In this document: positions 6,154-38,916 of the stretch, one piece after another
Position numbering within the stretch: the stretch's first letter is position 1
How the letters are laid out: each line of letters starts with the position of its first letter
Source of the DNA: a virus
Virus record (IMG/VR): IMGVR_UViG_3300030333_002778
Coordinates: 1-64,000 of that record
Length of the DNA: 64,000 nucleotides
Strand: one strand, 5' to 3'
The notes under the pieces: model-generated
The model's database searches: none
What the model saw: the letters and a program-made list of their open reading frames with translations, nothing else
What the model was told of the DNA's origin: nothing
Made by a program: the position numbers and the translations under genes

Positions 6154-6525
6154 TTATCGTTTACCACCATCATACACTACAGCATGACCTTCTTTAACTA
6201 ATGTGTCATTTATACACACTTGTGTTAGAACATCTTTGCCTGCTAGTTTATTAATATGCAACCTTCCAAGAACCCTACCATATTTACCAAGTTCTTCAGA
6301 TTGCAGCTCAAAACAATTAGCAGCTCCTTCCAGAATATCTATAAGTCTTTCCTTAGCAGCTAATCCTAATTTTTTCTCTACTTTATTTCTTGTTCTAGAT
6401 TCTGGAGCATTAATACCAGCAAGACGAATTCTCTTCTTTACATGGACATCAAAACCCAAATCTATATCAGCATCAATGGTATCTCCATCAACTACTCTTA
6501 TTAATTTTGCATTATATCTATACAT
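6154..6525 (-). CDS. Thermonuclease (SNase) family nuclease
   Basis: RVVDGDTID, RIRLAGINAPE, GKYGRVLG, INDTLVKEGHA motifs. Confidence 0.88.
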   Translation of the reverse strand: MYRYNAKLIRVVDGDTIDADIDLGFDVHVKKRIRLAGINAPESRTRNKVEKKLGLAAKERLIDILEGAANCFELQSEELGKYGRVLGRLHINKLAGKDVLTQVCINDTLVKEGHAVVYDGGKR

Positions 6526-9092
6526 TAGTCTAAATTGTATCTAAAATTCATATCTGTATTTTTAAAGAAAGTTTCTCTATCTTCATATCCTTCAGTAACT
6601 TTATAATCCCAATCTACACCACGTACTGAAGGTTGATGTTTATTCTTTCCTGATATATAATCATTCCAATTAGTCCATAATAATTCACCTTTATCATTTG
6701 TTTTAGTTGGACTACATGTTATACAATATACATCGGTCAAACCATCATATTTACCTCCTTGTATTGGATTTTCTTTTCTAAATTGAACTGGGTCTAATAT
6801 ATACCTAGAATAAAATCTACCCTCCCTAGGTAAAGAATCGTCATATCCCCAACCTGGATTATCCTCTGATCCTACTAATTTATTTGGATTATTTTTAAAA
6901 TATTTTTGAAAATTATATCCATGTCCCATATTATAAGCTAACATAGCTCTATATTTTTTTTCGTTTGCATTTGGTGCGTCTACAATATAAGGCCTATCCA
7001 TTAACCAATCTAAATAAGTTGCTTGAAAGTATCTAGCTATTACCGGATCATTTGGATCAGCATCTTCAGGTAAATATCCTCTTTCTATCCACATATTCCA
7101 TGTTCTAGGTAAAGTTTGAGCTAATCCAAAAGCACCTGCAGAACTTGTTCTAGGATCACCATCTTGAAGTTGTAAATAGTTTTCTTTCCATAACATATTA
7201 TTTAACTCTTCATCAGTAAACCATTTATTCTCTATTTTATCTAATTCTTGATTATACCATTCTTTACTAAATTTCTTTATTTTTTTTTCATCATCACCAT
7301 TATTCTGAGGTTTTAAAGCCATTAAAGATTCCATTAATGTAGACTCTTCATTTGTGGAGGTAGGAGGAGTCGAACCTCCGTATTCAAAGCGGGGTACATC
7401 ACCACGCGATGACAAACCAAATCTACCCCCATGTCTAGCTCGTGCTCTGCTATGTCCATATTTAGCACGTACTCTATAATTATCAGATCTAGTTCTAAAC
7501 TTAAGAGTATCCATCAATGGATCTCCTGTTGTTGTCATTCTTCCACCATATCTAGCTGTTACAGTCTGCTGATTTTGTAGATCATCTATATTATATTTTT
7601 CAAAAAAATTTTTTATAATTTTTTTATTCTTTTCTGTTATAACATTCATAAGATATCTAATATTCATATCTTCATCTATAAATTTAGGATCATCATGACG
7701 ATATTCAGGAATTCTAAACCTTTCTATAAATCTTTCTAAAGGTAAAGTAAGTTTTCCATCACCAAATGAATCTAAATATTCTCGCCAATGTTCAGCTGTC
7801 ATCTGCTCATATCTATAATCATATATACCTTTATCTAGCATATCTTGTCTTATAGCTCCCATATCAGCATGAGTCTCTTCTGTATCCTCAAGATGACCTC
7901 CTTCGTTAGAAAAATTTAGAGCACTAAGCATTCGTTTTTCTCTTTCTGGTAAATAATGTGAAAATCCATGATGGCCTATTTCATGTGCTAAAGTTGATTT
8001 AATATTATCAACCCATTGTGGATGTATTTGATCCATATATGGACTAACAGTTACAGTTCCTAAAAGATCCTTCCATCTAGGATCATCAGGATTTTCATTT
8101 GCCATTCTTAAAATAGAGTTTATTTCTTTTTGATTCATTTTTGCACCTACATCATCCCATTCAAAAGGATAGTCATAATAACCCTCTCCCTGTGTACGAT
8201 CATAATAATTTTTTGTAGAATAAAGCTCTTTATGTATATTTGGACCTATTTTAAATGGCCATGCATATCCACCAGTAGTTTCATGATCTCCTATTTTTCT
8301 TCTACTATATATTGCATTTACTAAATTTGGGTATTTACCTGCCTCTTCACTATCTAGAAACTCGTCTAAATTCTTATATTTTTTTGTTATATCTTTATAA
8401 TTTAATATATCTGGATTAGCTTCATAGAATGCTGCAAGATGTTTTTGTTGATTAACTACATTATCACGTTGTCCAAGAAAAGTTAAATTTCCAAGCGCAT
8501 CTGTAAATAAACTCTTTTGATTTTTCCAAGATTTTCTTGGTATATTATCAATAAATCTACTATCAAAATCTAAAAAAGAATCTTCACCCATCCATTCATC
8601 TAATAATTCTTGTTCCTGATTATACTGTGTATATTTATTATTAATTGAAGGATATACTGAAAGAAAAGGAGTATTCTCTATAAACTCTCCTGAATATCTT
8701 CTCTCAGCTAAACTATCTGGATCTGTATAATACTCCATTAAATCTGAAATATAATTTCTATCAGGAACATTCATAGGATTGAATTCGTTTTTCATATAAT
8801 CAGACATTATAGGATTTGGCCAAACTCTTATATCCTTTCTTAAACCTTCAGTATCAATTTCATTAGAACCTTTACCTGTTATATAACCACGTTCATCTAC
8901 TAAATTTGGATATTTTGAATGTAATTCTTTTTTCTGTTGCTGAAAATATTTTTCTGGATTTTCTATACGGTCTTTTTCTTCCGCAGTTAATTTACTATCT
9001 TTCCTAGATATTTTATTAGCTTTTAGTTGATTTAATAACTTTCTAAAAACTCCAGGTTTTTTATTACCACCATTTTCATAACGTCTCCTCAT
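6525..9092 (-). CDS. 855-aa cargo-like protein with a zincin HExxH domain and a C-terminal lytic transglycosylase (SLT)
   Basis: TLAHEIGHH with downstream EETHAD; SLT motifs WKEN, SSAGAFGLAQ, AMLAYNMGHG. Confidence 0.78.
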   Translation of the reverse strand: MRRRYENGGNKKPGVFRKLLNQLKANKISRKDSKLTAEEKDRIENPEKYFQQQKKELHSKYPNLVDERGYITGKGSNEIDTEGLRKDIRVWPNPIMSDYMKNEFNPMNVPDRNYISDLMEYYTDPDSLAERRYSGEFIENTPFLSVYPSINNKYTQYNQEQELLDEWMGEDSFLDFDSRFIDNIPRKSWKNQKSLFTDALGNLTFLGQRDNVVNQQKHLAAFYEANPDILNYKDITKKYKNLDEFLDSEEAGKYPNLVNAIYSRRKIGDHETTGGYAWPFKIGPNIHKELYSTKNYYDRTQGEGYYDYPFEWDDVGAKMNQKEINSILRMANENPDDPRWKDLLGTVTVSPYMDQIHPQWVDNIKSTLAHEIGHHGFSHYLPEREKRMLSALNFSNEGGHLEDTEETHADMGAIRQDMLDKGIYDYRYEQMTAEHWREYLDSFGDGKLTLPLERFIERFRIPEYRHDDPKFIDEDMNIRYLMNVITEKNKKIIKNFFEKYNIDDLQNQQTVTARYGGRMTTTGDPLMDTLKFRTRSDNYRVRAKYGHSRARARHGGRFGLSSRGDVPRFEYGGSTPPTSTNEESTLMESLMALKPQNNGDDEKKIKKFSKEWYNQELDKIENKWFTDEELNNMLWKENYLQLQDGDPRTSSAGAFGLAQTLPRTWNMWIERGYLPEDADPNDPVIARYFQATYLDWLMDRPYIVDAPNANEKKYRAMLAYNMGHGYNFQKYFKNNPNKLVGSEDNPGWGYDDSLPREGRFYSRYILDPVQFRKENPIQGGKYDGLTDVYCITCSPTKTNDKGELLWTNWNDYISGKNKHQPSVRGVDWDYKVTEGYEDRETFFKNTDMNFRYNLD
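7355..7430 (-). ncRNA. tmRNA-like tRNA-like domain (Ala acceptor) embedded in the CDS
   Basis: Acceptor GGGGGTA/TACCTCC with G3:U70 and A73; perfect T-arm GGAGG-TTCGACT-CCTCC; stemless D-loop GATTTGGTTTG. Confidence 0.65.
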
Positions 9093-21735: not shown

Positions 21736-21761
21736 TTAATTTAATTTATTTAATTAATTAG

Positions 21762-21833
21762 TTGCGGGAGATGGACTCGAACCAACCTAGACGGGCTAAT
21801 GAAACCCGTGAGTAACCCCTACTCTATCCCGCT
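21762..21833 (-). tRNA. tRNA-Met(CAT)-like, atypical (initiator-like)
   Basis: Acceptor AGCGGGA/TCCCGCA (1:72 mismatch), D-stem GAGT/ACTC, anticodon arm CGGGT-TTCATTA-GCCCG, T-loop TTCGAGT; no encoded CCA. Confidence 0.75.
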
Positions 21834-22592: not shown

Positions 22593-22716
22593 AAATAATT
22601 TCTTATAAAAAAAATATTTTTTATAAAATTTTTTTCATGGTGTATATTTAAAGATGCAGACCATTATTGGAATCTCCCCCCGGGCCCAACACCTCAATCA
22701 ACCCCCCGTGGGTCGA

Positions 22717-22748
22717 TTTTATGACCTACTACCATTACATATTATTGC
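22717..22748 (+). promoter_or_regulatory. Phage-specific early promoter candidate 1
   Basis: TTTATGACC-YANK-ACCWTTAC-N8-GC, shared with 23210 and 23621. Confidence 0.6.
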
Positions 22749-27482: not shown

Positions 27483-29354
27483 ATGAGTAAAATAGTATTA
27501 ATTACAAATCAAAAACAAATAACGACTCCAAATTGTCCTTTTGAAATAGGAACAATGGAAGAGTGTGTAGATTATTTGAAAGGTCAACAATATATAGCTG
27601 TTGATACTGAAACTGAGGGTAAGGATTTCACCCGCAAAAAAATAGTAATGTTTCAAATAGGAACAAAAGAAATTCAATATGTTATAGATACTAGATATAT
27701 ATCTATAGAACCACTAAGAGATATACTTGAAGATACAGAATATCATGTAAAAATATTTCATAATATTAAGTTTGATTATAAGTTTATTAAATCAAATTAT
27801 AATATTGAAGTAGAGAATATTTATGATACTATGTTAGCTGAAGGTGTATTACATTGTGGTAAAGATAAGCACGGATACAGCCTTAACCGCCTAACACAGA
27901 GGTATTTAGGGGTGACGCTTGACAAAGAAGTTCGTAACAAATTTATAGGATTAGATGGTAAACCATTTACTGCTGAACAAATTTGTTATGGAGCTAAAGA
28001 TGTACAATATTTGATTGAAATTATGGAGACTCAATTAGATCAGATATTTAAACTAGAATTACATTATGTATTAATACTAGAAAATAAAGCAGCTTTAGCT
28101 TTTGCAGACATAGAATATAATGGTCTATGTTTTGATCAAGACTCTTGGCTTAAGAATGCTCAGGTAAATGAAACTGAAGTTACTTTACTCGAACAAGAAT
28201 TGGATCAATGTATTGTTGATAATAATCTAGATGATTTTATTTCTAATCATGTTCAGCTTGATTTCTTTACACCTGTTGAAGATCTTCGTAAAGTCAATGT
28301 TAAGTGGTCATCTCCTATGCAAGTTAAGAATGTAATGGAAAGACATTTAGATACATCACTTGAAAAAGTTAATGCATTTGAATTATCTAAATATAAAGAT
28401 AGACCATTTGTAGGTAAATATCTTAAATATAAAGAAAAACAAAAGATATTAAGTACTTATGGTAAATCTTTTCTTAAATATGTGATGAAAGATGGTAAAG
28501 TCAGAACAAGCTTTTGGCAAATATTAAATACTGGGCGTGTGTCTAGTGGATCTAAAGAGGATCGTAAGCCTAATATGCAGAACATTCCAGCGAGGAATCA
28601 GTTTAGGAATTGCTTTCATGCAAGAGATGGACACAGTATTGTATCTGTTGATTACAGTGGGCAGGAGTTAGCTATTATTGCTTACGGTTCTCAAGATCCT
28701 GTTTGGATTAAATGTAGAAAGAATAATGAAGATCTCCATTCAGTATGTGCTGAATTAGTATTTGGTGATAAATGGCATACAGGTGATAAAAAGAAATTAA
28801 GAAACATGATTAAGACTATTAATTTCGGATTAGCTTATGGTATGAGTAAGTTTAAATTATCTGATACATTAAATATTGATGTAGATGAAGCTGATGAACT
28901 TATAAAGAAATACTTTAGCGCATTTCCTAATATAAAAGCATTTTTAAATAAACTTGGATGGTATGGTGTTATGAATGGTCATATTAAAACTTTTAAACCT
29001 TTTAGAAGAATTAGATGGTTTGAAAATTGGTATGCAGGTATACATAATTCATATAAAGATTTCAAGATTAAAGGAGCGATTGAGCGTGCATCTAAAAATA
29101 CTCCTATTCAAGGTACAGGAGCGGATATGATTAAACAATCTATGATTCTCATAAGAGAAGAGATTAAGAAAAATAATTATCCTTGTTACATGGTAACACA
29201 AGTACATGATGAAATAGGTGTAGAAGTTAAAGATGATTTCGCTGAAGAATGGGCTCATATACAATGTGAGTTAATGAAGAAAGCTGGTAAAATGATTGTT
29301 GATGGATTTGAAATGTCAGTTGATTATACAATAACTAAAAAATGGAGTAAATAA
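27483..29354 (+). CDS. polA: Family A DNA polymerase with 3'-5' exonuclease
   Basis: ExoI VDTETEG, HNIKFD, YGAKD; TGRVSS, motif A VDYSGQEL, motif B KTINFGLAYG, motif C QVHDEI. Confidence 0.96.
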   Translation: MSKIVLITNQKQITTPNCPFEIGTMEECVDYLKGQQYIAVDTETEGKDFTRKKIVMFQIGTKEIQYVIDTRYISIEPLRDILEDTEYHVKIFHNIKFDYKFIKSNYNIEVENIYDTMLAEGVLHCGKDKHGYSLNRLTQRYLGVTLDKEVRNKFIGLDGKPFTAEQICYGAKDVQYLIEIMETQLDQIFKLELHYVLILENKAALAFADIEYNGLCFDQDSWLKNAQVNETEVTLLEQELDQCIVDNNLDDFISNHVQLDFFTPVEDLRKVNVKWSSPMQVKNVMERHLDTSLEKVNAFELSKYKDRPFVGKYLKYKEKQKILSTYGKSFLKYVMKDGKVRTSFWQILNTGRVSSGSKEDRKPNMQNIPARNQFRNCFHARDGHSIVSVDYSGQELAIIAYGSQDPVWIKCRKNNEDLHSVCAELVFGDKWHTGDKKKLRNMIKTINFGLAYGMSKFKLSDTLNIDVDEADELIKKYFSAFPNIKAFLNKLGWYGVMNGHIKTFKPFRRIRWFENWYAGIHNSYKDFKIKGAIERASKNTPIQGTGADMIKQSMILIREEIKKNNYPCYMVTQVHDEIGVEVKDDFAEEWAHIQCELMKKAGKMIVDGFEMSVDYTITKKWSK

Positions 29355-30550
29355 TGAATATATCTAAAATAAAAGATAAAATTCAAAGAAAAGGTCTAAA
29401 TAAATGGTTTAGTAAGCCGTGGTATGGGAGGGGTACTCTACAATATGCTACCGGTTCAGGTAAGACACGTTGTGGTGTTCTGGCCGCGGCTTATTTAGCC
29501 AAAATAACTAATATGGATGCTAGGATATTAATATTAACTCCTACTGAAACTATTAGAGATAGATCATGGAAAGATGAATTTTATAAATGGAACGAAGGTG
29601 ATGTATATGAACAATGTGTTAAATGTGTTTGTATACAAACCGCATATAAATGGATAGGTCACAGTTTTGATCTAGTAATTGCAGATGAAATACATAATTA
29701 TGTATCTCCTGAATATTTTAATTTCTTTGCTAATAACAAATTTGTTAGGATATTAGGATTATCTGCATATATAGATCCAATTAAATTGAGATTATTAAAT
29801 AGTATAGCACCTGTAGTAGAATCTATTTCTACATTAAAAGCACAGGATCTTGGATTGATTAGTCCATTCAAGATATATAATGTCCCGGTTAGATTGACCA
29901 CAGATGAACAAATAGAATATGATAAAGCAGATAAATCATTTAATGGTTTATTTTCCTTTTTTAACAAAGATCTTAAAACTATGTTTGCTTGTATGAATAC
30001 AAATGTATATAGTAATTTTCTTGCTAAAAAAGGCATGGTTCTTGACGCTTCTGTGGCAAGCTATCCGTTTATGTGTAATGCAGCAATGGCTAAGAGAAAG
30101 AATATAATATATAATTCTAAATCTAAAATCAAAGCTGTTAAAAAACTATCAAATATTTTTTCTGAGAAGAAGGCTATTATATTTTCTCAGACTATTGAAT
30201 TTGCTGACAAAGTCACAGATGAATTAGATAATTGTGTAAGTTTTCATAGTAAAATTCCTAAAAAGAAAAGAAATGAAAACTTGAATTTGTTAAAGAGCGG
30301 GAACTCAATAACACGAATATCTACTGCTAAGGCTTTGAACGAAGGTATGAATGTACCTGATATTTCTATGGCAATTATTGCTAGTGGAACAAGCAAGACT
30401 AAAGATATGATTCAGCGTATTGGTAGAGCAGTACGTTGGGAAGCTAATAAAGAAGCTTCAATCTTTCGTCTCTACATTCAAGACAGTCAAGAGGAGAAAT
30501 GGGTTAGCGCTTCTCAGGAAAAATATGAAGTTGAACAATTAAAATTATAA
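29354..30550 (+). CDS. Superfamily 2 helicase (DExH)
   Basis: ATGSGKT, DEIH, GLSA, NEGMNVP, QRIGRAVR. Confidence 0.92.
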   Translation: MNISKIKDKIQRKGLNKWFSKPWYGRGTLQYATGSGKTRCGVLAAAYLAKITNMDARILILTPTETIRDRSWKDEFYKWNEGDVYEQCVKCVCIQTAYKWIGHSFDLVIADEIHNYVSPEYFNFFANNKFVRILGLSAYIDPIKLRLLNSIAPVVESISTLKAQDLGLISPFKIYNVPVRLTTDEQIEYDKADKSFNGLFSFFNKDLKTMFACMNTNVYSNFLAKKGMVLDASVASYPFMCNAAMAKRKNIIYNSKSKIKAVKKLSNIFSEKKAIIFSQTIEFADKVTDELDNCVSFHSKIPKKKRNENLNLLKSGNSITRISTAKALNEGMNVPDISMAIIASGTSKTKDMIQRIGRAVRWEANKEASIFRLYIQDSQEEKWVSASQEKYEVEQLKL

Positions 30551-33119: not shown

Positions 33120-33791
33120 ATGGCGAATTTAGTTATTATATGTGGAAAGTCAGGATCCGGCAAGTCCACCTCTGGAAGAAATTTGGATCCTAAAACTACT
33201 TTTTGGGTAAATAGTGATCAAAAAGCATTACCATTTAAAGGATGGAAAAAGAATTATTCTAAAGAAAATAAGAATTATTCTAAAGTATCTTCTTTAGTGG
33301 AAACATGTAATATTTTGAAAGCTATACCTGAACGTGCTCCTCACATTAAAACTGTTATTGTTGATACAATTAATCGTATGATGACAGATAAAGTAATGGG
33401 AGAAAGACATGTTAAAGGATTTGAAAAGTGGACTCAATTATCTGGTGGTATATATGATATATTTACTATAATAAATCAAATATTACCTGATGATATTGAT
33501 GTATTTGTATTAGCGCATTCTGAGGAAGGATACAATGATATGGGTGCTCAATATAAGAAAGTAATGACAGCTGGAAAACAACTTGATCGCATTGTTTTAG
33601 AGTCTATGTCAAGCGTTGTTTTATTTACTGAAGTTAAAGCCGATGGTAAAGGAAAGAACGAGTATATGTTTCAAACACAAACTGATGGTGTTTCAACTGC
33701 GAAATCACCTGAAGGAATGTTTGAAGAATATTTAATTCCTAATGATTTATTAGAAATTAAAAAAGCGATGAATAAATATTATAATGAATAA
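33120..33791 (+). CDS. AAA_24 / Sak4-like ATPase
   Basis: GKSGSGKST, VIVDT, LAHSE, TAKSPEGMF; adjacent to SSB. Confidence 0.85.
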   Translation: MANLVIICGKSGSGKSTSGRNLDPKTTFWVNSDQKALPFKGWKKNYSKENKNYSKVSSLVETCNILKAIPERAPHIKTVIVDTINRMMTDKVMGERHVKGFEKWTQLSGGIYDIFTIINQILPDDIDVFVLAHSEEGYNDMGAQYKKVMTAGKQLDRIVLESMSSVVLFTEVKADGKGKNEYMFQTQTDGVSTAKSPEGMFEEYLIPNDLLEIKKAMNKYYNE

Positions 33792-34407: not shown

Positions 34408-35442
34408 ATGTATAAAATAAATATTTCGTTAACCAAAGAAGCTGTACTTAATAAAATAAGTTCGTACCAAATTTTTAGTTATTATTTGGGCCGTGATTTT
34501 AAATCCGGCATAGTATTGAGTAGTCCCTTTAGACAAGATGATAAACCAAGTTTTTCTTTGTTTACCGATCGTAAAGGGACTATTCGGTATAAAGATTTTG
34601 GTACTGGTGAATCGGGTGATTGTTTTAATTTTATTCAGAAGAAATTCGGAATAGGTTTTTACGATTGCCTTATTCGCATTAATAACGACTTTAAATTGGA
34701 CTTAATGTACAGTGGAATTGGCAGAACAACTGTTCCTTATGACGGTTTCAAGACTGCAATCAAAGAACTAAATTTTAATCCTAAAAAATCTATAAATGTT
34801 AAAGTACAACCTTATACTTTTATAGATGAACATTACTGGAATCAATATGGTATTGACAAGAATTTACTTAAAGTATATAATGTATTTTCTTGTAAATGTG
34901 TTTTCATTGGAGATAAAACTGTAGCTACTTATGTAAATAATAATCCTATTTACGGCTATTTGTTTTATAAAGATGAAGAATACACATGGAAAATCTATCG
35001 TCCTTTATCTATTAACGGATACAAATGGATGAGCAATACCAATAGAACTGTATTTCAAGGATGGGATCAATTACCTAGAAAAGGTGATTTTATTATTATT
35101 ACTAAAGCATTGAAAGATGTTATGGTATTAAGAACATTAGGATTCATAAGTGTTGCATTGCAAAATGAAATCGCAGGTATAAAGGATACTGTTGCTCATG
35201 AATTATATGAGAGATTTAATGATGTATATATATTAAATGATTTTGATTATACTGGCGTAAGAGGCGCTAATAAACTAAAAAAGAAATATGGTTTCAAACC
35301 TATATTTCTTCAATGTTTTAAAACAAGATCAAATGGATTTAAAGATATATCTGATTTCAGAAAATCTCATTCATATGAAGAAAGTAAAAGTTTAATAAAA
35401 AAATTAATAGATAAATGGAAATACGAAGAGAACAACCCGTAG
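34408..35442 (+). CDS. dnaG: DNA primase (crAss-type TOPRIM)
   Basis: SPFRQDDKPSF, YKDFG, ITKALKDVM, NDFDYTG, KDISDF. Confidence 0.9.
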   Translation: MYKINISLTKEAVLNKISSYQIFSYYLGRDFKSGIVLSSPFRQDDKPSFSLFTDRKGTIRYKDFGTGESGDCFNFIQKKFGIGFYDCLIRINNDFKLDLMYSGIGRTTVPYDGFKTAIKELNFNPKKSINVKVQPYTFIDEHYWNQYGIDKNLLKVYNVFSCKCVFIGDKTVATYVNNNPIYGYLFYKDEEYTWKIYRPLSINGYKWMSNTNRTVFQGWDQLPRKGDFIIITKALKDVMVLRTLGFISVALQNEIAGIKDTVAHELYERFNDVYILNDFDYTGVRGANKLKKKYGFKPIFLQCFKTRSNGFKDISDFRKSHSYEESKSLIKKLIDKWKYEENNP

Positions 35443-37899: not shown

Positions 37900-38916
37900 A
37901 TGAAAAATACGTATTTAGTCTGTAAAGTCGATAAAGAAAATGTTCAGATCATTATCGATGGACTCCCTAAAACTCTTTCTAGAAAATATAAAGAAGCTGA
38001 CTCTGTAATTCAGTTAGCTAAAAACTTTAATAAATCTAGAGATGAGAATGAACGAAAAGCCATAATGGGCAAAGTTCAGGAATTGCTAACTCCTGGATAT
38101 CGAATTCAACATAAGACTGACGGTCGATTTGAATTTGACGGTGGTAGGAAAATGTATCTTAAAGGTACTACTGATCCTATACCAAATTTCTTAGCAAAAA
38201 AGTTAATGAAATGGATGGAGGAAGATATTCCTTTAACAGGTTTGATTAACTTTTGGAAGCATCTGTTATTAAATCCGGATAAAGCTGTTAGAAAGCAATT
38301 ATATAGCTTTCTAGAGCATAATGGCCATCCGATAACAGACAAAGGGTATTTTCTCGCATATAAAGCCTGTAAAGTCAAGAAAAAGTACGATAAAAAGACT
38401 GGGGAAGAAATTGTTCAGTTTCAGTACAATGAAGACACTGGTAAAAGAGAAGAGAAATATACTCAATCATTAACTTTTGCACCTTATCATAGTGGCGCTC
38501 ATGGAATGGTAATTAAAGTAGGTCAACCTATTGCAATGCCAAGAGAGGAGTGTGACTCTAATCCGGATCGAACATGTTCTGCAGGTCTTCACGTGGGATC
38601 TATGGAATATGTTCATGATTTTGGATATGGTGATGGTGTAATATTAGAAGTATTAGTTAGTCCACGTAATGTTGTAGCAGTACCGTCTGATTATGACAAT
38701 ACTAAAATGAGATGTTGTGAATATTTTCCTATCGCTATTAGTAATGGTGAAAATGAAGATGTTTATTTAGAATCTGATTATACTGGATTTGATCATGACT
38801 CTATGGTAAAAGACTTAGAAGCTTATGAGAAAGCTAAAAGAAAGCAAATAGCTGATCTTGAGAAAGAATTATCTCAAAGAGATCAGATTGCAGCTGAAAT
38901 TACTTCTAGTAATTAA
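37900..38916 (+). CDS. rIIB: rIIB-like protein
   Basis: FWKHLLLNP, ITDKGYFLAYK, CSAGLHVG, VSPRNVVAVP.DY...KMRCCEY. Confidence 0.88.
   Translation: MKNTYLVCKVDKENVQIIIDGLPKTLSRKYKEADSVIQLAKNFNKSRDENERKAIMGKVQELLTPGYRIQHKTDGRFEFDGGRKMYLKGTTDPIPNFLAKKLMKWMEEDIPLTGLINFWKHLLLNPDKAVRKQLYSFLEHNGHPITDKGYFLAYKACKVKKKYDKKTGEEIVQFQYNEDTGKREEKYTQSLTFAPYHSGAHGMVIKVGQPIAMPREECDSNPDRTCSAGLHVGSMEYVHDFGYGDGVILEVLVSPRNVVAVPSDYDNTKMRCCEYFPIAISNGENEDVYLESDYTGFDHDSMVKDLEAYEKAKRKQIADLEKELSQRDQIAAEITSSN

What the first reader, a model, noticed from the sequence alone, without database searches (positions are those of the whole stretch)
7355..7430. Mini-tmRNA (Ala-accepting tRNA-like domain) hidden in frame inside a virion gene
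Seen: a 76-nt sense-strand element GGGGGTAGATTTGGTTTGTCATCGCGTGGTGATGTACCCCGCTTTGAATACGGAGGTTCGACTCCTCCTACCTCCA with a 7-bp acceptor, G3:U70, A73, a perfect T-arm, a stemless D-loop and a short irregular helix in place of the anticodon arm. It also encodes the linker HGGRFGLSSRGDVPRFEYGGSTPPTST of the 855-aa ORF. Known: G3:U70 is the AlaRS identity element, and a stemless D-loop defines the SmpB-binding TLD of tmRNA. Inference: a TLD-only RNA with no tag ORF that could sequester SmpB, rescue ribosomes without tagging, or serve as an RNase P/Z site that cuts this late mRNA (dual coding). It could also be a relic or att-like capture.
Basis: partly seen in the sequence, partly recalled or inferred. 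Interest (0 to 1): 0.8.

Follow-up and report, generated by a model that had tools for sequence, protein, structure and literature searches.

The report
Mini-tmRNA nested inside phage virion gene
A 76-base copy of the tRNA-like head of the bacterial ribosome-rescue RNA (tmRNA), with no tag-coding part, lies in frame inside a virion enzyme gene of a marine crAss-like phage and is the best-conserved stretch of that protein, so the same DNA probably serves as both protein code and small RNA, but no RNA data exist.

Summary
On the minus strand at 7355-7430 lies a 76-nt tRNA-like element. It has a 7-bp acceptor stem with G3:U70 and A73, a 5-bp T-stem with a UUCGACU loop, a stemless GG D-loop and a short irregular helix. 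It is in frame (codons 555-580) in the 855-aa zincin-SLT gene of an 89-kb crAss-like phage.

It is the only Rfam match in the window: tmRNA, both halves of the tRNA-like domain (TLD), 34.3 bits, E 4e-10, below the gathering score.

The one homologue whose DNA I could obtain keeps all 12 pairs, including an A-U to G-C double change. The encoded peptide is the longest invariant run of the protein family (31 aa, twice the next). Ten of its 25 codons are rare for this genome. Recoding the peptide with genome-typical codons rebuilds the fold in only 9 of 100,000 trials.

TLD-only tmRNAs are published (mycobacteriophage DS6A). I found 42 distinct free-standing, strongly covarying ones in IMG/VR. This element is a divergent member: it lacks their UUCGAC/GGAC junction and is nested in an ORF.

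This scan has already reported free-standing phage mini-tmRNAs, and one nested case, on other DNA.

Function (SmpB titration, tag-less rescue or an RNase P cut site) is inferred, not shown. A relic reading is not excluded.

The parts
7355..7430 (-). Nested TLD-only mini-tmRNA-like element (76 nt), equal to codons 555-580 of the host ORF
   Evidence: Rfam tmRNA 34.3 bits, E 4.3e-10 on the whole window. Own mini-TLD model R1 gives 37.6 bits over its full length. It folds as an autonomous domain in mRNA context.
7424..7430 (-). Acceptor stem, 5' strand (GGGGGUA), with G3 of the G3:U pair
   Evidence: 7 of 7 pairs with 7356-7362. In L002, A7 becomes G together with U to C on the partner.
7413..7423 (-). 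Stemless D-loop analogue with UGG (GAUUUGGUUUG)
   Evidence: Aligned to the tmRNA D-loop consensus. It lacks the CGAC that follows in free-standing forms.
7384..7412 (-). Short irregular P2-like helix (3+3+4 bp with internal loops, triloop) in place of the anticodon arm and mRNA-like domain
   Evidence: MFE and constrained folds. The only two changes here in L002 fall on unpaired bases.
7363..7379 (-). T-arm: 5-bp stem GGAGG/CCUCC with 7-nt loop UUCGACU
   Evidence: In L002 one A-U becomes G-U.
7355..7362 (-). Acceptor 3' strand (UACCUCC) plus discriminator A, followed by CAA rather than CCA
   Evidence: A synonymous ACC codon would have encoded CCA but is used in neither sequence.
6525..9092 (-). 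Host gene: 855-aa zincin-like + SLT lytic transglycosylase protein in the head/virion module (TerL, portal, 803-aa ORF, this gene, nuclease, 389-aa ORF, major head protein)
   Evidence: Full-length collinear homologues are P0002 (82%) and P0003 (68%).
6885..7148 (-). SLT (lytic transglycosylase) domain, residues 649-736, downstream of the element
   Evidence: Pfam PF01464, E 4.3e-6, above its cut-off. PHROG endolysin / internal virion protein families.
7968..7985 (-). HEIGHH zinc-peptidase-type motif, residues 370-375, upstream of the element
   Evidence: Translation. It is conserved as HE(I/L)GHH in the homologues. No Pfam family matched, so the domain assignment is an inference.

Best explanation
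The element is a genuine tmRNA-type tRNA-like domain with no mRNA-like part (a 'TLD-only' or CDS-less mini-tmRNA). It is nested in frame in the linker between the zincin-like and SLT domains of a virion protein gene of a marine crAss-like phage. It is kept by selection on the RNA as well as on the peptide. Shown: its identity as a TLD-like fold, its nesting in a real gene, its conservation in every known homologue, and an excess of nucleotide-level order over what the peptide requires. Inferred mechanism: part of the late mRNA folds into the TLD. RNase P cuts at its 5' end and a 3' tRNA-processing enzyme cuts after the discriminator A. CCA is then added and AlaRS charges the RNA through G3:U70/A73. 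The ~79-nt RNA binds SmpB and EF-Tu. With no resume codon, it competes with host tmRNA. That would either block ssrA tagging or give tag-less alanine transfer late in infection, as proposed for the DS6A TLD. My odds: about 0.85 that it is a real TLD-derived element, about 0.65 that it is still under RNA-level selection, and about 0.4 for the processed, SmpB-directed mini-tmRNA mechanism as stated.
For: The Rfam tmRNA model aligns both TLD halves in the window (34.3 bits) and in the homologue L002 (42.0 bits, E 5.8e-15). A covariance model built only from 28 free-standing phage mini-TLDs matches both elements end to end. It gives 37.6 and 43.2 bits, against 15-28 for ordinary tRNAs in the same search. 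Window and L002 differ at 5 of 76 nt and keep 12 of 12 pairs: one A-U to G-C double change, one A-U to G-U change and two changes at unpaired bases. The encoded peptide is the longest invariant run of the three full-length proteins: 31 aa at residues 551-581, next longest 15, shuffle P 1.5e-4. Identity between P0001 and P0003 is 1.00 over the element, 0.62 before it and 0.82 after it. Ten of 25 codons are rare for this genome, and only 3e-5 of random recodings have a codon-choice likelihood as low. Recoding the peptide with genome codon usage restores all pairs, the T-loop, the GG and G3:U in 9e-5 of trials. No distant homologue of either enzyme domain covers residues 540-567, and only two reach the 3' part of the element. 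The segment is therefore a family-specific linker. The TLD folds autonomously in 196 nt of mRNA context in both sequences. It is the only TLD-like element in the complete 89-kb genome. Free-standing TLD-only RNAs are a real, covarying phage class: 98% of cells paired and 146 double-sided changes against 41 in shuffles. Hudson et al. 2014 (PMC4131195) and PMC11915505, both citing Mao et al. 2009, report that a DS6A-like TLD inhibits tmRNA in E. coli.
Against: DNA is available for only two homologues, and they are close (about 10% nt divergence). Synonymous change in the element (4 of 25 codons) is not lower than in the flanks. Of the possible single synonymous changes, 39 of 63 would be structure-compatible anyway, so the substitution pattern is weak evidence. 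The element lacks the UUCGAC/GGAC junction, which is invariant or nearly so in free-standing mini-TLDs, and it has only a weak P2-like helix. It scores 37.6 bits against 68.5 for an independent canonical member. Equally atypical codon patches exist elsewhere in the window; its z of -5.07 ranks fourth among distinct stretches. CCA is not encoded although a synonymous codon would allow it. There is no promoter or terminator signal of its own. The phage encodes no SmpB or RF-1-type factor. No expression or processing data exist.
Confidence: 0.42

Rival explanations
1. Relic or exapted TLD. A free-standing mini-tmRNA gene, or an inserted copy, was absorbed into the ORF. Its translation became a useful linker peptide, and the RNA no longer functions. 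The fold is still visible because the peptide fixes most bases and the two available DNAs are close relatives.
For: The UUCGAC/GGAC junction and a regular P2 helix are missing, although they are invariant or nearly so in free-standing forms. There is no reduction of synonymous change. No CCA is encoded despite a free synonymous option. There are no own transcription signals. Flanking linker residues are also well conserved.
Against: With genome-typical codons the peptide alone gives 12 of 12 pairs in 1.3% of recodings, and the full TLD signature in 9e-5. The identical peptide in a 68%-identical protein implies an old insertion, yet 10 rare codons persist in a 30% GC genome. A G/S/T/P/R-rich inter-domain segment being the single most invariant run of the protein is hard to explain by protein function alone. 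L002 changed towards a better TLD score, with a double change that keeps a pair.
Confidence: 0.25
2. Cis-acting processing signal ('tRNA punctuation'). The fold exists to recruit RNase P and a 3' processing enzyme to cut the late mRNA between the zincin-like and SLT halves. This would limit full-length protein, or allow separate translation of the SLT half from the in-frame AUGs just downstream. The excised RNA itself would have no role.
For: RNase P needs only the coaxial acceptor/T-arm stack, which is exactly the part kept perfect, while the SmpB-side junction is degenerate. In L002 the C-terminal module is a separate 393-aa gene, so the two halves can work apart. In-frame Met codons follow the element at residues 587 and 591. 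Mukai 2021 (PMC8124441) proposed a comparable idea for selC nested in selB.
Against: The G3:U pair, A73 and the tmRNA-type D-loop are not needed for RNase P, yet they are kept in both sequences. Cutting would leave a non-stop 5' mRNA. There is no direct evidence of cleavage.
Confidence: 0.2
3. Degenerate tRNA-Ala-like pseudogene or D-armless tRNA rather than a tmRNA derivative. An alternative 6-bp hairpin with a 7-nt loop would act as an anticodon arm.
For: The tRNA model gives 22.8 bits, E 1e-3. An alternative hairpin can be drawn by eye from the sequence. Odd tRNA-Ala(UGC) genes with short D arms exist in phage tRNA arrays.
Against: The score is below the tRNA cut-off (29), and ARAGORN calls nothing. 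The tmRNA and mini-TLD models score higher. The putative loop has C, not U, at position 33. The MFE fold prefers the P2-like fold.
Confidence: 0.05
4. Chance resemblance, a rare-codon pause cluster at a domain boundary, or a DNA-level att-like site captured from a host ssrA gene.
For: Other rare-codon patches exist in the window. Phages often carry 3' fragments of ssrA (PMC9004378).
Against: E is 4e-10 on the window, and the match recurs in L002 at E 6e-15. Both halves are present in gene order, unlike an att fragment. The exact 3' half occurs in only one of 185,579 species genomes, and only as a fragment.
Confidence: 0.04

Closest known systems
TLD-only ('Standard, no CDS') tmRNA of mycobacteriophage DS6A (Hudson, Lau and Williams 2014, PMC4131195; tmRNA database 2025, PMC11915505; both cite Mao et al. 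2009)
   Same: It is phage-encoded. It has the acceptor stem with G3:U70, the T-arm and the stemless D-loop of tmRNA. It has no resume codon, tag ORF or pseudoknots, and is about 65-85 nt long. The proposed action is inhibition of host tmRNA, perhaps by titrating SmpB.
   Different: DS6A and the 42 free-standing relatives I found are separate genes in intergenic space, often near tRNAs. They keep the UUCGAC/GGAC junction and a 6-8-bp covarying P2 helix. The window element is translated as part of an 855-aa protein, lacks that junction and has an irregular helix.
selC (tRNA-Sec) nested inside the selB ORF of Alphaproteobacteria (Mukai 2021, PMC8124441)
   Same: A whole tRNA-type gene lies on the sense strand inside a protein ORF and is read through as amino acids. 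Folding and processing of the RNA would destroy the full-length mRNA. That case is also supported by bioinformatics only.
   Different: selC is a canonical tRNA at the 3' end of a functionally linked gene in bacteria. Here a tmRNA-type domain sits in the middle of a phage virion enzyme gene with no evident functional link.
Mini-tmRNA nested in frame in a secreted SLT-like gene of a marine actinophage
   Same: A TLD-only element is read in frame in a linker upstream of a peptidoglycan-enzyme-like domain. The T-arm/acceptor peptide (GFDSPHLH) is invariant in 9 of 12 homologues.
   Different: The phage lineage, protein and reading phase at the 3' half are unrelated. That element is a canonical class member with the junction motifs, and 3 of 12 homologues lack it. 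Here all four known homologues have it. The SLT assignment of that protein was not confirmed by Pfam or PHROGs here.
Mitochondrial (jakobid, oomycete) and plastid CDS-less tmRNAs (Rfam RF02544; Jacob et al. 2004, as cited in PMC11915505)
   Same: These are tmRNAs reduced to the tRNA-like domain with no tag reading frame. They are thought still to act with SmpB.
   Different: They are organellar and usually permuted. The RF02544 model does not match the window element.

Membership tests
tmRNA (Rfam RF00023, standard form) | Both halves of the tRNA-like domain: 5' acceptor/D-loop, and 3' T-arm/acceptor with G3:U70 | tested here: met
   The cmscan alignment covers model positions 1-19 and 346-374 in the window and in L002.
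tmRNA (Rfam RF00023, standard form) | Score at or above the curated gathering score (47 bits) | tested here: not met
   34.3 bits (window) and 42.0 bits (L002).
tmRNA (Rfam RF00023, standard form) | mRNA-like domain with resume codon, tag ORF and pseudoknots | tested here: not met
   Only 31 nt replace 326 model positions. ARAGORN finds no tmRNA or tag peptide.
TLD-only / CDS-less phage mini-tmRNA (DS6A type) | 7-bp acceptor with G3:U70 and discriminator A; 5-bp T-stem with 7-nt UUCRANU loop; stemless D-loop with UGG | tested here: met
   There is a full-length match to model R1, which was built from 28 free-standing members.
TLD-only / CDS-less phage mini-tmRNA (DS6A type) | UUCGAC ... GGAC junction flanking P2 (G19, A20, G52 and A54 invariant; C21 and G53 at 90% or more in alignment A3) | tested here: not met
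   The window has UUUG-UCA and AUAC; L002 has GUAC. Three model positions are deleted.
TLD-only / CDS-less phage mini-tmRNA (DS6A type) | Regular 6-8-bp P2 helix supported by covariation | tested here: inconclusive
   An irregular 3+3+4-bp helix is predicted. The two sequences do not vary at its paired positions.
TLD-only / CDS-less phage mini-tmRNA (DS6A type) | Stand-alone RNA gene outside protein-coding sequence | tested here: not met
   The element is codons 555-580 of an 855-aa ORF with full-length homologues. Apart from L014/L042, the free-standing members I examined (10 with the longest spanning open frames) lie before or outside real genes.
TLD-only / CDS-less phage mini-tmRNA (DS6A type) | Processed, alanylated, binds SmpB and inhibits trans-translation | not testable with these tools
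   No RNA run holds the locus. Biochemistry is needed.
Canonical tRNA (Rfam RF00005 / ARAGORN) | Cloverleaf with D-stem and anticodon arm; score at or above 29 bits | tested here: not met
   22.8 bits. ARAGORN makes no call. The folds show no D-stem.
Mitochondrial tmRNA (Rfam RF02544) | Match to the family model | tested here: not met
   No match at the element at E<=10.
RNA gene nested in a same-strand ORF (selC-in-selB type) | Whole RNA gene inside the ORF, frame open through it, arrangement conserved in homologues | tested here: met
   The element is in frame with no stop. L002 DNA has the same arrangement. The peptide is identical in P0002 and P0003.

The most novel reading that the evidence does not exclude
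The nested TLD is a self-contained 'cut-and-protect' module. RNase P and 3' processing excise it from the late mRNA. This splits the zincin-SLT message into a non-stop 5' half and a separately translatable SLT half. It also releases an alanyl-mini-tmRNA that occupies SmpB, so the non-stop product is not ssrA-tagged and degraded. One ORF would then yield both fused and separate enzymes. A mini-tmRNA also sits in frame in the linker of a putative (unconfirmed) cell-wall enzyme gene in an unrelated actinophage. That recurrence would reflect this logic rather than mere tolerance of linkers.
Probability: 0.1. Interest if true: 0.85.

Novelty: new variant of a known kind. Interest (0 to 1): 0.6.

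Why it matters
TLD-only tmRNAs are a barely studied phage tool against, or in place of, host ribosome rescue. The published record names one phage case among nine CDS-less sequences. A copy that is translated as the linker of a virion enzyme, and that is the most conserved stretch of that protein, would be a clear case of dual RNA/protein coding in a phage. It would extend the only published bacterial precedent (selC in selB) to the tmRNA family and to crAss-like phages. It also gives a directly testable system: synonymous recoding separates the RNA role from the peptide role. Practically, such elements are invisible to ARAGORN and fall below Rfam thresholds, so genome annotation misses them.

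Tried and rejected
- Protein-guided and peptide-pattern scans of IMG/VR found no relatives. The exact 3' half also gave no hit there.
- The single metagenome scan gave only L002.
- tblastn and blastn against isolate phages found no homologue of the gene or the element.
- The look-up of sequencing runs listed 20 marine or seawater runs holding the gene, with no RNA holder listed.
- AlphaFold2 on a 4-sequence alignment gave an unusable model (mean pLDDT 32.7). It shows no secondary structure for residues 488-601, but I give this no weight.
- The promoter/terminator scan around the element found no excess over shuffles and no terminator.
- A host-capture search with the 3' half in 185,579 genomes found only a fragment in an Acidimicrobiia MAG.
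- The mt-tmRNA model gave no hit at the element.
- SmpB and RF-1 domains are absent from the phage.
- The synonymous-rate test showed no suppression. The test on compatibility of substitutions was not significant.
- Mao et al. 2009 is not held and is cited only through PMC4131195 and PMC11915505.
- The long open frames spanning other mini-TLDs were examined. All except L014/L042 were judged spurious or to start downstream of the RNA.
- Complex prediction was not used, because the partner in question is an RNA.
Full report
**What is there**

The quoted 76 nt are the reverse complement of window 7355-7430. They lie on the sense strand of ORF 6525..9092(-), 855 aa. The element begins on a codon boundary and encodes residues 555-580.

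It has these features:
- seven acceptor pairs, including G3:U;
- an unpaired A after the acceptor;
- a 5-bp T-stem with a UUCGACU loop;
- a stemless D-loop with GG;
- a short irregular helix (3+3+4 bp) where an anticodon arm or the mRNA-like domain would be.

In 196 nt of mRNA context the same fold forms as a closed domain, both in the window and in the homologue L002.

ARAGORN does not call it. Rfam's tmRNA model aligns both halves of the tRNA-like domain (TLD), with 31 nt in place of 326. The score is 34.3 bits against a gathering score of 47. E is 1.7e-11 on the gene and 4.3e-10 on the whole window, where it is the only match at E<=0.05. The tRNA model gives 22.8 bits (cut-off 29), and the mitochondrial tmRNA model gives nothing.

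**Context**

The record is a complete 89,460-bp IMG/VR virus of about 30% GC. Its large terminase is about 40% identical to those of gut crAss-like phages and of Flavobacterium and Cellulophaga phages. It is therefore a marine crAss-like phage, probably of a Bacteroidota host.

The gene lies in the head/virion module. The order is terminase, portal, an 803-aa ORF, this gene, a small nuclease, a 389-aa ORF and the major head protein. The gene has an HEIGHH motif at residues 370-375 and a Pfam SLT lytic transglycosylase domain at residues 649-736.

In a search of 1.84 billion representative proteins, distant relatives match the N-terminus, residues about 360-540, or residues about 570-790. None covers residues 540-567, and only two reach the 3' part of the element. 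The element therefore encodes a family-specific inter-domain linker.

**Homologues**

Only three relatives exist in the collections:
- two full-length proteins, P0002 (82% identity) and P0003 (68%);
- a 393-aa split form, P0004, on the 1.6-kb marine contig L002.

All of them carry the peptide. In the three full-length proteins, the longest invariant run is 31 aa at residues 551-581. It lies exactly over the element and is twice as long as the next run (15 aa); the shuffle P is 1.5e-4. Identity between P0001 and P0003 is 1.00 over the element, 0.62 before it and 0.82 after it. A Gly/Ser/Thr/Pro/Arg-rich linker that is better conserved than either catalytic motif points to an extra constraint.

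DNA was obtainable only for L002. Its element scores higher (tmRNA 42.0 bits, E 5.8e-15) and differs at 5 of 76 nt:
- A7 to G together with U69 to C, which turns an A-U acceptor pair into G-C. The first change is non-synonymous (Arg to Gly).
- A54 to G, which turns an A-U pair in the T-stem into G-U.
- Two changes at unpaired bases.

All 12 pairs survive. Taken alone, this is weak evidence. Of the 63 possible single synonymous changes, 39 would be compatible anyway. The share of identical-residue codons that carry a synonymous change is 4 of 25 in the element, which is not below the roughly 0.1 seen in the flanks.

**Nucleotide-level order beyond the peptide**

Ten of the 25 codons are rare for this genome, with relative frequency at or below 0.14: GGG, TTG, TCG twice, CGT, CCC, CGC, TAC, ACC and TCC. 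The element is 54% GC in a 31% GC window.

I sampled synonymous codons for the same peptide from the genome's own usage, with these results:
- a codon-choice likelihood as low as observed in 3e-5 of trials;
- 12 of 12 pairs in 1.3% of trials;
- the full signature (pairs, T-loop, GG and G3:U) in 9e-5 of trials.

The caveat is that the element's codon z-score (-5.07) ranks only fourth among distinct stretches of the window's long ORFs. Similar patches occur at conserved motifs of replication genes. The identical peptide in a 68%-identical protein implies an old insertion. Persistence of the rare codons therefore argues for selection on the nucleic acid. Without the DNA of P0003, this remains an inference.

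**The wider class**

A pattern built from the TLD core found 83 IMG/VR loci, with 60 distinct sequences. That core is GGGG, UGG in the D-loop, a 20-50-nt gap, the T-loop core and CUCCA.
- Eighteen are odd tRNA-Ala(UGC)-like genes in tRNA arrays.
- Forty-two are free-standing TLD-only RNAs of 61-85 nt.

In a 28-sequence alignment, 98% of cells pair. There are 146 double-sided changes against 41 in shuffles, and all six P2 pairs covary. Open frames spanning these RNAs are mostly short. Of the ten longest that I examined, nine start downstream of the RNA or look spurious.

The covariance model R1 built from these sequences gave the following scores:

| Sequence | R1 score (bits) |
|---|---|
| Unannotated mini-TLD in a tRNA cluster of Streptomyces phage pSt2308 | 68.5 |
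| L002 element | 43.2 |
| Window element | 37.6 |
| Ordinary tRNAs in the same search | 15-28 |

The window element is thus a full-length but divergent member. It lacks the UUCGAC/GGAC junction, which is invariant or nearly so in the class, and it has a weak P2 helix. It is the only such element in the whole phage genome. The phage has no SmpB or RF-1-type gene.

**Literature**

- Hudson, Lau and Williams 2014 (PMC4131195) list mycobacteriophage DS6A as 'TLD only'. They note that a similar molecule strongly inhibits tmRNA, perhaps by titrating SmpB (Mao et al. 2009, not held here).
- The 2025 tmRNA database paper (PMC11915505) counts nine 'Standard, no CDS' sequences. It repeats that the DS6A form inhibits endogenous tmRNA in E. 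coli.
- Mukai 2021 (PMC8124441) reports selC nested in the selB ORF as the first nested tRNA gene in a bacterial ORF.
- I found no paper on a tmRNA-type domain inside a coding sequence.

Earlier notes of this scan had already described free-standing phage mini-tmRNAs, and one nested case in a marine actinophage. I re-found that case independently as L014/L042. It is a canonical mini-TLD in frame after a signal anchor. The peptide GFDSPHLH is invariant in 9 of 12 homologues and absent from 3. Its SLT-like nature was not confirmed by Pfam or PHROGs here.

**Mechanism**

Shown:
- a TLD-type fold;
- dual coding in a real gene;
- conservation in all known homologues;
- excess nucleotide order over what the peptide requires.

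Inferred: a fraction of the late transcripts folds into the TLD. RNase P and a 3' tRNA-processing enzyme cut it out, and CCA is added because the gene has CAA after the discriminator. AlaRS charges the RNA through G3:U70/A73, and it engages SmpB and EF-Tu. With no resume codon, it competes with host tmRNA, giving either a block of tagging or tag-less alanine transfer.

Rivals:
- a relic kept only as a linker peptide (about 0.25);
- a pure RNase P punctuation signal that splits or limits the zincin-SLT message (about 0.2). The perfect acceptor/T-arm with a degenerate junction, the split form in L002 and the in-frame Met codons at 587 and 591 all fit this reading;
- a degenerate tRNA (about 0.05);
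- chance or an att-like fragment (about 0.04).

**Verdict**

This is a real, divergent TLD-only mini-tmRNA-like element nested in frame in a virion gene. It is a new variant of a known kind. Identity is well supported, RNA-level selection is probable but rests on few sequences, and function is untested.

Noticed in passing
L007-L089 (IMG/VR loci); e.g. L029:5908-5987(-), L010:4080-4143(+): There are 42 distinct free-standing TLD-only mini-tmRNAs (61-85 nt) in phage contigs. They show strong covariation in the acceptor, P2 and T stems and a conserved UUCGAC/GGAC junction, and many are followed by an encoded CCA. ARAGORN calls none of them correctly. This class is far larger than the nine CDS-less entries in the 2025 tmRNA database.
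   Followed up: yes
L091:791-868(+) (Streptomyces phage pSt2308, PV588686.1, about 33356-33433); also hits H5-H7: An unannotated canonical mini-TLD sits inside a tRNA cluster of an isolated Streptomyces phage. Related matches occur in phages LuckySocke, GiJojo and Alone3, one of them under a 'hypothetical protein' CDS.
   Followed up: partly
L014:6766-6845(-) and L042 (same element); ORF L014:6129-6950(-): A canonical mini-TLD is read in frame (phase 0) after a signal anchor and before a Pro/Thr linker of a 263-aa-type secreted protein with an ES...GWFQ motif. Nine of 12 homologues keep the TLD-encoded GFDSPHLH and three lack it. This matches earlier scan note e1-5967336.
   Followed up: partly
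L008, L022-L024, L030, L031, L034, L037, L039-L041, L050, L059, L060, L066, L071, L080, L082: Eighteen distinct 68-72-nt tRNA-Ala(UGC)-like genes with very short D arms lie in large phage tRNA arrays. ARAGORN calls only three of them.
   Followed up: no
L002:281-1462(-) and upstream ORF ending near 1473: In this marine contig the C-terminal module (linker with the TLD plus SLT) is a separate 393-aa gene behind an unrelated upstream ORF. The zincin and SLT halves are therefore shuffled as modules, and the TLD travels with the SLT half.
   Followed up: partly
window 21761-21833 (-): ARAGORN calls a tRNA-Met(CAU) with a weak 3-bp T-stem. The Rfam tRNA model does not report it at E<=0.05 on the window, nor in the whole-genome family search.
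   Followed up: partly
L090:1440-1803 (crAss-like phage cr7_1, NC_055895.1 20629-20992): An annotated 357-nt 'tmRNA' overlaps an annotated tRNA-Cys. Only a T-arm/acceptor-like 3' piece lies about 60-90 nt into the feature. The annotation may be an artefact, or the gene may be a permuted form.
   Followed up: no
L029:5908-5987(-): ARAGORN joins a mini-TLD to downstream sequence and reports a tmRNA with the tag AWDYNPMWVQCSA. This is probably a false full-length call caused by a TLD-only gene.
   Followed up: no
window 27867-27941, 28533-28607, 29414-29488, 38323-38397, 34636-34710 (+): These are other 25-codon patches with codon usage as atypical as the TLD (z -4.6 to -6.8). Some fall on conserved motifs of replication genes (a polymerase motif and a GSGKT Walker A). 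No Rfam match lies there.
   Followed up: no
window about 22652-22727: A 54% GC island with C-tracts (CCCCCCGGGCCC ... CCCCCCGTGGG) lies in the region where the strand bias of the genes switches. I have no explanation for it.
   Followed up: no
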